From: Eledone cirrhosa
Taxonomy: Eukaryota
Assembly (NCBI GenBank): GCA_964016885.1
Contig: OZ024758.1
Location: forward strand, 15,562,001-15,626,000
Reading direction: 5' to 3'
Length of the DNA: 64,000 nucleotides
Below are positions 14,501 through 29,500 of this stretch, piece after piece. Every line of letters starts with the position of its first letter. The first letter of the stretch is position 1. The notes under the pieces were generated by a model. That model saw only the letters and a list, made by a program, of their open reading frames with translations. It was not told the DNA's origin and did not search any database. Made by a program: the position numbers and the translations under genes.

Positions 14501-17500
14501 CGTCAGTATGAGCGACCGTTTAATCCTGGTTTGATCAAATGGAGGTGAGATAATTCTGGCCAGATATACATTTATATTATATTTTCATGTTAAATGCTTT
14601 ACCTCACATAATTATCTCACATTCTATCAAATCTATGAGATTTTGATATCACCTATGTTGAGAACAATACCTTAACATCAAAATGAGCAGCCAGTTACAG
14701 CCAGTTTGAAGAGAAAGAGGTGAGTTTAAATGCTAAAGGGTTAAATAGTGCTAAAAACTGTAAAAATAGTCTGCAAGAAGAAAACATTTGTTTTATATAT
14801 ATAAAAGCTGTTATTTTGTTATTTTCATTAGAAATAAACTACAGGACAATCAGACAGTTTTTAGTCATGCATACAATGAATGACCAACATGCAGTTAGAT
14901 AAATATACCTATGGGATATGTTGAGGGGATTCTGCTGCTAAGGTCCTGTTAAAAAGGAAACAACCTTTTAGCAAATGTCAACAAACAAAATGTATACATG
15001 CACAAAATTAGCATATATATATATATATATATATATATACATACATAAATATCTATATATATCTATACATACATAAATATATATATATATATATACATAC
15101 ATAAATATATATATATATACATACATAAATATATATATATATATATATATATACATACATATATATATATATACATACATAAATATATATATATATACAT
15201 ACATAAATATATATATATATACATACATAAATATATATATATATATATATATATATATACATACATATATATATATATACATACATAAATATATATATAT
15301 ATATATACATACATACATATATATATATATACATACATAAATATATATATATATATATACATACATACATAAATATATATATATATATATACATACATAA
15401 ATATATATATATATATATATATATACATAAATATATATATATATATATACATACATAAATATATATATATATATATATACATACATAAATATATATATAT
15501 ATATATATATATATATATATACATAAATATATATATATATATATGCATACATCAATATATGTATATATGCATACATAAATAGATGTATATGCATACATTA
15601 TATATATATATATATATACATACATAAATATATATATATATATATAACGAAGGAAATGTGGTAAGGAACCAGGTGGACCATAACGCACCAAAGTACTCAA
15701 TACTTGAGGTAGTAGAGTGGGTAATAGGAACCAGTAAGACCCCGACAGCTGAGCTCAAGCCGTTTCGACGGCTAATTCTGGACTAAATGAACATTTATCC
15801 TGGTATTTAAATAGCCGATCTTCTCAAGGGGTAATTCCATATATGGTCAAAGTGATTGTCAAAAATCAGTAGTAATTCTGTGGTTGCAAATTAGTAGAGG
15901 AGATGGTGGCTAAACCTGCCAGTAGGAGAAAGAGGGGAGGGGGTGGAGTAGACCCAATCAAGCGTTGGTAGTGCCAGCTACAGCTGGGCATGAGGTCAAA
16001 GAAGATACAGGGGAGGGGGAGGGGGAGGAAGTCGGAACGGTAGGTAGAACAATGGGGGGTAGAAATAGGAAAGAAAAAATACTGAGAGTGAAGGAAAGCA
16101 AATAAGTGTAAAGAAAAAATTAAATTCTACGACCTAGGTGTCAGGCTATTGTTAGGCGAGAATAAAATAAAGAAAGAAAGAAAGAAGCAAATAAATAAAC
16201 AAATAAATAAATAAAGAAATAAGTATAGAACTAGGTGGGACGAATTAGGCAAGGACCCTTTTAAGAGGTATAAGTACGTAAATGATACGGTGACTGGTCA
16301 ACAAAAGGGGCCAAAATACTAAAGAGACTACCACGAAATAAACAATAAAGGTTTCCATCCAGGGCCAGCAACGACCCAGTGCAGCAAAGTGAACTTGTAC
16401 GACATAATAATTCTGAGTCCCGAGAAAAATATATACTAATGCTAACTCTAAAAGATCTAAAACAAGCTACATGAAAGTTCGTACGAAATAAAGGTAGAAT
16501 ACGGAGAAATAAGTTCAGAATCCACCCCGCCCAGAAGAAAAGCGAAGCAAGAAATACTGAAACGAAAAAAATAAGGCATAAGTGCCACTAAGAAATATAG
16601 AGGGCACAGAGAATAGTGGGAGCGGTCGGAAAAGGGGGGCAAGTATCCGGGGTCTAAGCCAACTGCTATAAAGGGCGGAGTCCGCCAAATCTATCAAAGA
16701 CTAGGGGAGGGGGGAGTGGGGGTACTAAGGCTACATGGGGCCAAAGGGCAGCCTCGGGTGGGCGAGAAAAGACGCCGACAAAGGAGAAGAGCTGGGGTAG
16801 AAGGACAAAGGAGAGCGGGGGGAAGGAAATAAAAGATGCGATAAATGAATACAAAGAAGATCTTACGTCTTCCTTGGCAAGCAGGGGTTACCCATTGCAA
16901 AATCGGCAACTGGGGTGTTATAGCCCTAGTCTACCCCCCCGGGTCATTATGGGGTTTGAGGGCGAGGTAAGTCCTACGCAATCTATGTTTACATGCAGTA
17001 ACCAGTTCATCTTTCTTGTTTAGGAGTTGGTCCGTCGAAAACAGCATTTGTAAAGTTTCCTCCGAGCATAAATTGCACGGACGGCGTCCTCCCGTGTAAG
17101 AATTGGCTCTGGACAGTAATCTCCAAGTGAGATCATAGGTGATGTTGTTGTCCTTGAGGTCCCATATGTGGCCCGAAAGTGTAGTGGCGTGACGCCGGGC
17201 CGGGTTTCGGAAGGTATGTCTATGTTGGTATAGCCGGGTCTTGAAGTCACATGCGGTAAGTCCTATATAGGCTTTGTTGGAGGTATCCGTCCTCACGTTG
17301 CACTGGTAGATCACATTACGGTCTCTGCATCTATTGTCGAGTGGGCAAATAGATCTATCCGGGCAGTTACACCTCCTGGTCGGTTCTCCACTGCTATTTA
17401 GGTTATTTCTGCCATCGGGGTTGAGTTTTTTGTTGTTAGAGGAGACGATGTTTTGTGCGAAGTTTGGTGTAGTGCTGTAAGAGAGTTTGATGGTATTTTT

Positions 17501-26500: not shown

Positions 26501-29500
26501 TTCTTAGTGGCACTTATGCCTTATTTTTTTCGTTTCAGTATTTCTTGCTTCGCTTTTCTTCTGGGCGGGGTGGATTCTGAACTTATTTCTCCGTATTCTA
26601 CCTTTATTTCGTACGAACTTTCATGTAGCTTGTTTTAGATCTTTTAGAGTTAGCATTAGTATATATTTTTCTCGGGACTCAGAATTATTATGTCGTACAA
26701 GTTCACTTTGCTGCACTGGGTCGTTGCTGGCCCTGGATGGAAACCTTTATTGTTTATTTCGTGGTAGTCTCTTTAGTATTTTGGCCCCTTTTGTTGACCA
26801 GTCACCGTATCATTTACGTACTTATACCTCTTAAAAGGGTCCTTGCCTAATTCGTCCCACCTAGTTCTATACTTATTTCTTTATTTATTTATTTGTTTAT
26901 TTATTTGCTTCTTTCTTTCTTTCTTTATTTTATTCTCGCCTAACAATAGCCTGACACCTAGGTCGTAGAATTTAATTTTTTCTTTACACTTATTTGCTTT
27001 CCTTCACTCTCAGTATTTTTTCTTTCCTATTTCTACCCCCCATTGTTCTACCTACCGTTCCGACTTCCTCCCCCTCCCCCTCCCCTGTATCTTCTTTGAC
27101 CTCATGCCCAGCTGTAGCTGGCACTACCAACGCTTGATTGGGTCTACTCCACCCCCTCCCCTCTTTCTCCTACTGGCAGGTTTAGCCACCATCTCCTCTA
27201 CTAATTTGCAACCACAGAATTACTACTGATTTTTGACAATCACTTTGACCATATATGGAATTACCCCTTGAGAAGATCGGCTATTTAAATACCAGGATAA
27301 ATGTTCATTTAGTCCAGAATTAGCCGTCGAAACGGCTTGAGCTCAGCTGTCGGGGTCTTACTGGTTCCTATATATATATATATATATACATACATAAATA
27401 TATACATAGATACATAAATATATATATAGATACATAAATATATACATACATACATACATACATACATACATAAATAAATATATATACATACATACATAAA
27501 TATGGACCTATTATTTTTATCTAAAGACATTTTTTTCCAATTCCATCCCGCCCGTCCCCTTAATCTATTTTATTTCCCGTTCTTTCTTCTGATGAAGGAC
27601 TAGCGTCCGAAACGTTAAGACCCTCTTCCTACTATATCAAGCATTAACCTAATATATACTGTACCGATTGTGTTGTTATTTCTGTTTCCCTTTTACATAT
27701 ATATAATAAAATAATTATGCTTTTATAAATATAGTTTCCATTTATTAATATATTGAATATTTACTCCAGCAAACTGTTGAGTGCTTTATATCAGTTATAA
27801 ACTTTTAAGCTTGTTGGAATCCCAACAAATTAAATATAACTTCTGCATATATATATATATATATACAAGTGGAAGCTTAGTAAAATCGAAGCTTTGGCTG
27901 TGGCCAAGCAAAGCCGACCTACAACAAGGAATGAGTAGCAAAGCACTCAATAAGGTTGAAGGCCTCAGAGTAATAACATACGTTTAGACAGCTTGACAAA
28001 TTGAAAATTGCGGCAGGTAAACCTAGCCACACAATACCAAAACACCGAAAAAACTAATCAGGTTAGACATTCTAATGTGAATTATGGTAAATACAATAAT
28101 CAGGCCTACTAGTACATACTATTAACAACATAGACAGAAGTTTTAGTCACACTGACAAAGATTTTTATTTTGATGGTGGATAATTCTAGAAACTAGTTTC
28201 TCCTCATACAGAGGAAAGTTTTAAAATACAACTGAAGAATCTTCTGGTTTCTAGAATGTTCCACATAACATTTCCAAGAGGAAATTAACACAATAGATTT
28301 TATTTTAACTAAACAACACTCATCAAGGTTGTAGATTAGAATAATTCTTATAACAAAACAAAAACAAAAAAATAAAAAATAAATAAATAAAAAAAACAAA
28401 AAAAAACAAATAAATCAAACTTTGTTATCAAGAAACTGTTATATAACAATGGTTCAGATTTTGATGTAGATAACACTTGCTAAGATAACTTGTTATACAG
28501 CTTATCATATATACTCGAATATAAGCCAAGGTATACTCAGGACTTGAATAACCCCCCCCCCCCCCCCGTGTTTATAAATTTTTTTTTTTTTTTTTAAATA
28601 ATTTTTTTTAATAATTTTTCAAATATTTTCCAGCCCCACTACTTTTATTCAATCCCCGACCCTCTGCTTATTAAATTTTGCTAATCTATCTCTGGCGAAA
28701 TTTTATTCTAAGTGTCATTGAGGTATCAAAATATCAGAATAAATGCCTCAGTATTTGTTCTACATTTCTGTGTGCTGAGTTCAAATCGTGCTGAGGTCAA
28801 CATTGTCTTTTATCTTTGTCAGGGTTAATAAATAATGTACCAGTCCAATGGGGCAGTGAATTGATGACAAAAAGCACCGAGCACACACTGTAAAGTGGTC
28901 ATGTAGGAGTCACGACAAAAAGAACCGAGCATACACTGTAAAGTGGTCATGTAGGAGTCACGAAAAAAAGCACCCAGCACACACTGTAAAGTGGTCATGT
29001 AGGAGTCACAACAAAAAGCACCCAGCATACACTGTAAAGTGGTCATGTAGGAGTCATGACAAAAAGCACCCAGCACACACTGTAAAGTGGTCATGTAGGA
29101 GTCATGACAAAAAGCACCCAGCACACACTGTAAAGTGGTCATGTAGGAGTCATGACAAAAAGCACCCAGCACACACTGTAAAGTGGTCATGTAGGAGTCA
29201 TGACAAAAAGCACCCAGCACACACTGTAAAGTGGTCATGTAGGAGTCACGACAAAAAGCACCCAGCATACACTGTAAAGTGGTCATATAGGAGTCACGAC
29301 AAAAAGCACCCAGCACACACTGTAAAGTGGTCATGTAGGAGTCATGACAAAAAGCACCGAGCATACACTGTAAAGTGGTCATGTAGGAGTCACGACAAAA
29401 AGCACCGAGCATACACTGTAAAGTGGTCATGTAGGAGTCACGACAAAAAGCACCCAGCACACACTGTAAAGTGGTCATGTAGGAGTCACGACAAAAAGCA

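What the first reader, a model, noticed from the sequence alone, without database searches (positions are those of the whole stretch)
15644..27371. Fresh 11.7-kb head-to-head, multi-unit Penelope-like insertion primed from both strands of a (TA)n microsatellite
Seen: the minus arm 15644-20566 (~1.4 units) and the plus arm 20566-27371 (~1.9 units) of a seamless 3531-bp unit meet 5'-to-5' with a 1-nt overlap (T20566). The two 3' ends point outward and stop at different places, 100 nt and 20 nt past the predicted ribozyme cut. Each ends on a TAT shared with the flanking (TA)n, and the host satellite keeps one orientation on both sides. Known: PLEs form partial-tandem and inverted pLTR structures, and some target microsatellites. 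Inference: one event in which both DNA ends of a break in (TA)n independently primed long reverse transcription by microhomology, and the two cDNAs were then joined. Having two intact ORFs and more than one unit per arm makes this an unusually complete snapshot of the mechanism.
Basis: partly seen in the sequence, partly recalled or inferred. Interest (0 to 1): 0.85.

Follow-up and report, generated by a model that had tools for sequence, protein, structure and literature searches.

The report
Two-armed Penelope insertion, fixed start sites
This is a very young, unusually long copy of an abundant Penelope-type jumping gene whose insertions are back-to-back pairs that end at two fixed points, one of each per pair, which likely means that one enzyme complex copies one RNA into both ends of a cut TA repeat and re-reads that RNA to make tandem copies, a step of this element class that is still unsettled.

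Summary
The 11.7-kb structure is real as described: two arms of a 3,531-bp Penelope-like unit with Hydra-clade protein motifs, head-to-head in (TA)n, two intact ORFs, 2 differing bases. It is the long extreme of the family norm (31,159 exact hits of one 30-mer). The two 3' ends are not chance microhomologies. They are fixed sites, A (+20) and B (+100 nt from a U3-A8 hammerhead cut), and they pair one of each: 34 of 34 resolved A ends face B, 32 of 32 resolved B ends face A. Both arms carry one haplotype. Most arms are stubs that stop at one probable RNA 5' end. Head-to-tail restarts begin only there or at the ribozyme cut (7 of 7), which points to re-reading of a single-unit RNA. Inverted copies, one-sided tails and two start sites are in print, and this scan has noted the one-of-each rule before on other DNA. 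The restart and haplotype evidence is what this family adds. The inner junction was not confirmed by reads.

The parts
15013..15646 (.). Left target satellite, (TA)n with CATA/CATAAA units
15644..20566 (-). Arm B, 1.39 units; 3' end at 15644 = fixed site B (unit position u3441, +100 from the ribozyme cut); 5' end at u2050
20566..27371 (+). Arm A, 1.93 units; 3' end at 27371 = fixed site A (u3361, +20 from the cut); 5' end at u87
20566..20566 (.). 5'-to-5' junction with a 1-nt overlap, within the range usual for the family
16931..19084 (-). Intact 717-aa ORF (RT plus C-terminal GIY-YIG-type endonuclease, Hydra-clade motifs)
24011..26164 (+). Intact 717-aa ORF with a private H131L
20566..22633 (+). 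5'-truncated ORF copy, lacks the first 29 codons, private F393S
27263..27356 (+). Type I hammerhead fold, U3-A8 core, 37-nt loop II, palindromic loop III, predicted cut after 27351; same motif at 23732-23825 (+), 15739-15832 (-) and 19270-19363 (-)
   Evidence: other copies placed by the 3,531 period and mirror
27282..27318 (+). TATA-like box (27282-27291) and the stretch (27306-27318, u3296-3308) where 100 of 138 sampled arms begin; inferred transcript 5' end, inside ribozyme loop II
   Evidence: promoter reading is inference
27369..27503 (.). Right target satellite, same orientation as the left

Best explanation
This is one very young insertion of a Penelope-like retrotransposon whose copies sit in (TA)n as two back-to-back arms ending at two fixed sites 80 nt apart, one site per arm, likely because one enzyme-RNA complex cuts both DNA strands and starts reverse transcription from each end at a different site of the same RNA, and the arms here exceed one unit likely because a single-unit RNA was re-read. 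Steps: (1) shown: (TA)n target, fixed ends A and B, one-of-each pairing, one haplotype in both arms. (2) Inferred: the endonuclease cuts both strands, and each 3' end pairs with a UAU at site A or B that the protein presents. (3) Inferred: most cDNAs run off an RNA 5' end at u3296-3308 and leave stubs of about 200 bp. (4) Inferred from restart junctions: on reaching an RNA 5' end (that site, or the ribozyme cut) the RT moves on to an RNA 3' end. Landing on the ribozyme-cut end of a unit-length RNA, by a circle, an end-to-end jump, or strand transfer across the 40-nt overlap u3301-3341, gives a seamless tandem. (5) Inferred: host end joining links the two cDNAs with 0-2 nt overlap or short inserts.
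For: Pairing: of 40 loci picked by an A end, 34 face B, 0 face A, 4 are solo, 2 unresolved. Of 40 picked by a B end, 32 face A, 0 face B, 7 solo, 1 unresolved (Fisher p 1.4e-19). All 33 long two-arm insertions among 50 long loci are A+B. Both ends run into (AT)n in raw reads of another study (2,925 and 7,398 reads) and in contigs under a second organism label. Same template: arm-to-arm divergence 0.16% against 0.75% between insertions; the partner arm is the strictly nearest sequence in 15 of 21. Single-unit template: in 18 insertions (20,550 positions), 91 variants are in all segments, 42 are singletons, 5 are in subsets. Either arm here, less one unit, has no internal repeat, so unequal crossover within the arm cannot have started it (sequence). 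Restarts: 7 of 20 consecutive read-through loci restart head-to-tail, 4 at u3301-3304 and 3 at u3341-3342, the predicted cut. 0 of the 12 seamless ones stop at u3296-3308, against 100 of 138 short-sample arms. In vitro, a Poseidon PLE cuts and extends both strands and starts at two internal sites (PMC11167929).
Against: All mechanism is inferred from DNA; no RNA data were obtained. PMC11167929 reports no difference in start site between strands, no homology at priming and no need for ribozyme cleavage in vitro. Arm identity could partly be gene conversion between inverted arms; 6 of 21 partner arms are tied or not nearest. One variant (L111-2, u2451) is shared by the first unit of each arm only, as a linear multi-unit RNA predicts, and L236 u2445 may be a second. 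Some arrays look expanded after insertion (L109-10, L115-6). A genome-wide count of junctions exactly at the cut (60) does not exceed a control palindrome (95), and 0 of 138 BLAST-called 5' ends fall at u3339-3345 (arms under 24 nt were missed, e.g. L151). Exact A and B end counts differ (7,328 vs 22,740), which I attribute to subfamily variation next to A seen. The stop cluster could be an RT stall in the loop II hairpin, not a transcript end.
Confidence: 0.62

Rival explanations
1. Same two-site, two-ended priming, but the template was one long read-through RNA from a tandem donor, with no re-reading.
For: Donor-sized arrays exist (arms of 16 kb, 4.5 units). PMC11167929 proposes multi-copy mRNA. 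One or two variants are shared by same-rank units of both arms. Alternating variants in L103-5 and L106-8 fit a two-unit template.
Against: 91 all-segment variants against 5 subset variants. 0 of 12 seamless arms end at the probable transcript start. No donor with this haplotype among the 40 best of 1,828 candidates (one assembly, partial scoring). 7 restart junctions show that re-entry happens.
Confidence: 0.2
2. One reading: both DNA ends primed independently wherever TAT microhomology allowed.
For: Both ends do lie on a TAT, so short pairing may assist.
Against: Two fixed sites only; 0 same-site pairs in 66 resolved short-sample pairs and 33 long pairs; 3 other TAT sites nearby were not found as outer ends.
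Confidence: 0.04
3. The inverted arm comes from fold-back or self-priming, for example on an antisense template (proposed in PMC3846280).
For: Stub pairs look palindromic at the junction; exact palindromic junctions exist.
Against: In long pairs the two 5' ends lie within 20 nt in only 1 of 33; here they are u2050 and u87. Fold-back does not explain why the outer ends always differ by 80 nt.
Confidence: 0.05
4. Two separate insertions or later rearrangement, homogenised by gene conversion.
For: Inverted repeats can convert (own knowledge); nested insertions into the same TA tract occur (L046, L239).
Against: No TA tract at the junction; the strict A/B rule; 25 of 25 close hit pairs are head-to-head, none tail-to-tail; a neighbouring ribozyme repeat in similar targets has an inverted partner in 1 of 30.
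Confidence: 0.05
5. Assembly artefact at 20566.
For: No listed read or contig bridges 20566 in 7 runs.
Against: The runs are not known to come from the assembled animal, and a private insertion would be absent from them. The anatomy matches dozens of other loci, and inverted joints of the family appear in raw reads. Segment-private and locus-private variants are hard to create by misassembly.
Confidence: 0.04

Closest known systems
Hydra-clade Penelope-like elements (Craig et al. 2021, PMC8557442; seen: passages, section 11, supplement part 2)
   Same: Single ORF, C-terminal endonuclease, DKT, CxCx5C linker, CxxC and CxH around the catalytic E and N, no CCHH, (TA)n target, hammerhead near the 3' end.
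   Different: 3.5-kb unit (listed members 1.1-3.0 kb, several incomplete); RWR for RWK; hammerhead core U3-A8 with a 37-nt loop II instead of the canonical core; no tree with named Hydra members was built.
Canonical EN+ PLE insertion layout: partial tandem, inverted 5'-truncated copy, one-sided 30-40-bp tail (PMC8557442 Fig. 2 legend; PMC3846280 passages)
   Same: Head-to-head inverted copy, tail on one end only, microhomology joins, TATA plus initiator in the pLTR.
   Different: The tail is 80 nt; pairing is strict rather than optional; both arms can exceed one unit; asymmetric junctions argue against the self-priming explanation offered in PMC3846280.
PAc (Poseidon, Anolis) in vitro TPRT (Frangieh et al. 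2024, PMC11167929; seen: main text parts 1-2 of 4, passages)
   Same: Both strands cut and extended; two internal start sites that bound the tail; predicted dimer.
   Different: No strand-to-site coupling, no priming homology and no role of ribozyme cleavage were reported there; here the sites pair one of each, both lie on TAT, and some cDNA pieces begin at the predicted cut.
Circular-RNA model for PLE tandems and the U3-A8 PLE hammerhead (Cervera and De la Pena 2014, PMC4209133; seen: passages)
   Same: Proposes cleavage, circularisation and more-than-unit reverse transcription; reports the U3-A8 core and opposite-strand ribozyme pairs 100-700 bp apart.
   Different: A proposal there; here restart junctions and variant sharing bear on it, and a second restart point away from the cut is seen.
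L1 twin priming (recalled, not read here)
   Same: Both target strands prime, giving a 5'-to-5' inversion joined by microhomology.
   Different: In L1 the second primer lands at variable internal sites and the arms barely overlap; here both sites are fixed and the arms copy the same sequence.

Membership tests
EN+ Penelope-like element | Single ORF with RT and GIY-YIG endonuclease | tested here: met
   717-aa ORF with YRDD and AYIGLT; 2,020 homologues at E<=1e-20 among 8,000 scored, top hit carries PF01541; Atlas neighbours carry GIY-YIG and RVT_1 in part of their members. Pfam and PDB sequence searches gave nothing for this protein.
EN+ Penelope-like element | Partial tandems (pLTR), inverted 5'-truncated copy, one-sided tail | tested here: met
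EN+ Penelope-like element | RT groups with PLE/telomerase RTs in a tree or by fold | not tested
   No reference set to hand; the structure job had not returned.
Hydra clade | C-terminal endonuclease; DKT; CxCx5C linker | tested here: met
   DKTG at 117, CNCPDRSIC at 572, AYIGLT at 605; conserved in 19 homologues but for one variant DKT; definition
Hydra clade | CCHH absent; CxxC and CxH flanking E and N | tested here: met
   CNLC at 670, CKH at 698, no cysteine pair inside the GIY-YIG core
Hydra clade | RWK motif in place of GxKF/Y | tested here: inconclusive
   RWR here; RWK in most homologues at the same column
Hydra clade | (TA)n insertion | tested here: met
   7,328 and 22,740 exact end-into-TA matches
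Hydra clade | Canonical hammerhead (CUGANGA core) | tested here: not met
   No CUGANGA in the unit; a U3-A8 variant is present and kept in 136 of 137 matches. Filed therefore as a variant, Hydra-like by protein.
Type I hammerhead ribozyme | Three helices around conserved core bases, NUH cut site | tested here: met
   Minimum-energy fold gives the three-way junction; U3-A8 covariation is in print; energy z only -0.58
Type I hammerhead ribozyme | Self-cleavage | not testable with these tools
   Indirect and mixed: 3 restarts at the cut; junction count not above control
Naiad/Chlamys | N-terminal endonuclease | tested here: not met
   Endonuclease motifs at residues 605-700
Neptune/Nematis/Poseidon | CCHH motif and DKG | tested here: not met

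The most novel reading that the evidence does not exclude
This PLE integrates through an asymmetric two-RT complex that commits the two DNA ends to two different sites on one RNA. Its RT jumps from RNA 5' ends to RNA 3' ends, and the hammerhead cut supplies the landing end that makes the jump seamless. Promoter start and ribozyme cut would then frame a 40-nt terminal repeat that works like the R region of LTR elements, regenerating the tandem pLTR in every round from a single-unit RNA.
Probability: 0.35. Interest if true: 0.8.

Novelty: new variant of a known kind. Interest (0 to 1): 0.55.

Why it matters
How PLEs make tandem and inverted copies is called undefined in PMC8557442, and the role of their ribozyme is open in PMC11167929. 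This family has tens of thousands of copies, many intact ORFs and sharp rules, so it gives direct predictions for an in vitro system: which RNA site each strand uses, whether one RNA serves both, and whether the cut end accepts a jump. In practice, the roughly 200-bp palindromic stubs in TA look like MITEs and could be misfiled as DNA transposons (inference).

Tried and rejected
Rfam scan: only low-scoring microRNA hits on the satellites, no ribozyme. I first rejected the ribozyme because a one-mismatch core search was empty; the Hydra hammerhead table led to the U3-A8 reading. Pfam and PDB sequence searches were empty. The structure prediction never returned, so no fold search was run. Classic L1-style twin priming on one linear RNA (arm A starts 177 nt after arm B ends) was dropped: arm 5' ends are scattered. 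The single A/A case was a false match inside the ORF of L158; L125 and L126 were moved to B by the BLAST table. A genome-wide count of A/A, A/B and B/B pairs was not obtained, so pairing rests on samples, the unbiased ones all from contig C1. No RNA holder was listed. Literature searches for twin priming in Penelope, tail and inverted-pLTR mechanism, PLE structure or dimer and template jumping listed no paper whose title or abstract start states the one-of-each rule or restarts at the cut. Subscription papers are not covered, and the supplements of PMC11167929 and of the bioRxiv retrozyme preprint were not read. No dimer prediction was sent.
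Full report
Coordinates. Unit positions (u) count from the ATG at window 24011 with period 3,531. The window lies in a 3.0-Gb animal assembly.

Observation. The minus arm is 15644-20566 (u2050 to u3441, 1.39 units) and the plus arm 20566-27371 (u87 to u3361, 1.93 units). 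One T is shared at the junction, each outer end has a TAT, and the satellite keeps its orientation. Only two bases differ among the segments. Two ORFs are intact (717 aa, H131L apart) and a third is 5'-truncated. No listed read or contig crosses 20566 in the seven runs laid. These runs are not known to come from the assembled animal, so this neither confirms nor refutes the junction.

What the element is. The protein has [27 protein letters not shown] and CKH and lacks CCHH. That is the description of the Hydra clade in PMC8557442 section 11, apart from RWR for RWK and a longer unit. Pfam and PDB sequence searches were empty; 2,020 homologues were found. No canonical hammerhead core is present. 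A type I fold with a U3-A8 core forms at u3253-3346, with the cut after u3341; that core is kept in 136 of 137 matches and is known from Schistosoma PLEs (PMC4209133). I file it as a Hydra-like variant; no tree with named members was built.

The family norm. One 30-mer has 31,159 exact matches. Among the first 100, all 25 pairs within 100 bp are head-to-head. In 40 loci from that list most insertions are two arms in (TA)n ending at u3361 (A) and u3441 (B). To test pairing I took 40 consecutive loci by an A end and 40 by a B end, all on contig C1. A ends: 34 face B, 0 face A, 4 solo, 2 unresolved. B ends: 32 face A, 0 face B, 7 solo, 1 unresolved (p 1.4e-19). The automatic table read 32, 1 and 7 for the A set; one search showed the one A/A to be a false match, and two interrupted copies were assigned. 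Of 50 loci chosen for long arms, all 33 with two arms over 300 nt are A+B, and 3, including this one, have both arms over one unit. Both ends run into (AT)n in raw reads of a separate study and in contigs under another organism label. Five TAT sites lie in u3297-3531 and only two were found as outer ends. The target is a palindrome, so the asymmetry must come from the RNA-protein complex (inference). A neighbouring ribozyme repeat has one 3' end and an inverted partner in 1 of 30 loci, so pairing is not a general effect of TA targets or of the assembly.

One template for both arms. Arms of one insertion differ by 0.16%, different insertions by 0.75%. The partner arm is the strictly nearest sequence in 15 of 21; the other 6 are tied or beaten, five of them over shared stretches under 800 nt. 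Here four variants (u2251, u2269, u2724, u3187) are in all four segments and in no other sampled long copy, and no identical donor appeared among the 40 best of 1,828 candidates. Gene conversion could add to this and is not excluded.

Where arms stop. 100 of 138 arms begin at u3296-3308, about 15-35 nt after a TATA-like box and at initiator-like sequences (consensus recalled; a TATA plus initiator in a pLTR is reported in PMC3846280). This is inside ribozyme loop II, so such a transcript would have no complete ribozyme at its 5' end. An RT stall in the loop hairpin is the alternative. Long arms end at scattered positions, and the two 5' ends are within 20 nt in 1 of 33 pairs, which argues against fold-back. 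Junctions show mostly 0-2 nt overlap or short inserts.

How arms exceed one unit. Only 313 exact matches read through site B into the ORF side, against 22,740 that end there. Of 20 such loci taken in list order (skipping those already fetched), 7 are head-to-tail restarts. The downstream piece begins at u3301-3304 in four and at u3341-3342, the predicted cut, in three, and joins to varied upstream points. L123 restarts twice. Twelve are seamless: 11 pass u3297, one stops at u3368, none stops at u3296-3308 (p 7e-7 against the short sample; two of the 11 are older copies read by eye). One is unclear. Deletions would not share two right-hand breakpoints, so I read these as jumps from RNA 5' ends or small circles. 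Across 18 insertions, 91 variants are in all segments, 42 are singletons and 5 are in subsets, as expected if one unit is re-read. Against this: one or two subset variants fit a linear multi-unit RNA; two arrays show alternating variants, and two look expanded after insertion; junctions exactly at the cut (60) are fewer than a control palindrome (95). For this locus, each arm less one unit has no internal repeat, so within-arm unequal crossover could not have begun the tandem.

Mechanism. Most likely (0.62): a complex with two RT sites cuts both strands of (TA)n and primes one end at A and the other at B of the same RNA. It usually runs off the 5' end to leave a stub pair of about 200 bp, and sometimes re-enters at the ribozyme-cut 3' end to roll on. 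The cDNAs are then end-joined. The fixed ends, pairing and shared haplotype are shown; every enzymatic step is inferred. The main rival (0.2) keeps the two-site priming but uses a long read-through RNA.

Against what is known. Inverted truncated copies and a one-sided tail are standard for PLEs (PMC8557442, PMC3846280; passages). Two-strand extension and two start sites are shown in vitro, without strand-site coupling (PMC11167929; main text parts 1-2 of 4). The circle model is a proposal in PMC4209133 (passages). The retrozyme preprint 10.64898/2026.07.22.740005 (part 1 of 5) and PMC13282606 (passages) added nothing on this point. My searches listed no paper stating the strict rule or the restarts. 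Earlier AI notes of this scan report the one-of-each rule in this and other genomes; I had reached it before looking, and they are not independent support.

Verdict. Real, young, and the long extreme of a known layout. The value lies in a strict, testable rule and in junction evidence on how tandems are rebuilt. Interest 0.55.

Noticed in passing
window 27502-27705 and 45822-46021: 3' fragments of a second ribozyme repeat with a canonical hammerhead core (3,432 exact hits of a 26-mer); one fixed 3' end into TA/CA repeats, an inverted partner in only 1 of 30 loci; clade not determined. The right-hand satellite abuts it.
   Followed up: partly
L106-L108 (G000:C1:91.489-91.493 Mb): A 55-bp piece of the ORF (u1524-1581) is repeated about 60 times at the junction of a 16-kb arm and its partner: reiterative synthesis or a minisatellite born at the join.
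   Followed up: no
L103-L105 (u653) and L106-L108 (u1126): In two 4.5-unit arms a variant alternates between units, suggesting a two-unit template or a two-unit duplication.
   Followed up: partly
L123 (G000:C1:27009140-27009900): The B arm is two 257-nt repeats (u3298 to u23) plus the usual stub: a retrozyme-like tandem in the making.
   Followed up: partly
L233 (C13:21.72 Mb), L234 (C3:300.64 Mb): Two more insertions with both arms longer than one unit.
   Followed up: yes
window 27361-27369 and unit u3414-3422: A 9-nt direct repeat lies just before site A and about 20 nt before site B, and a long imperfect hairpin is predicted between the sites: candidate protein-binding signals, untested.
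   Followed up: no
window 5737-6011, 9620-9960, 10351-10713, 46488-46829, 47692-48016, 56829-57182: Several other short palindromic elements of 275-360 bp, some next to TA runs; possibly stub pairs of other families.
   Followed up: no
window 6928-7724, 28866-29797, 53270-53519, 34404-34801: Minisatellites of 32, 48, 48 and 136 bp units with high identity.
   Followed up: no
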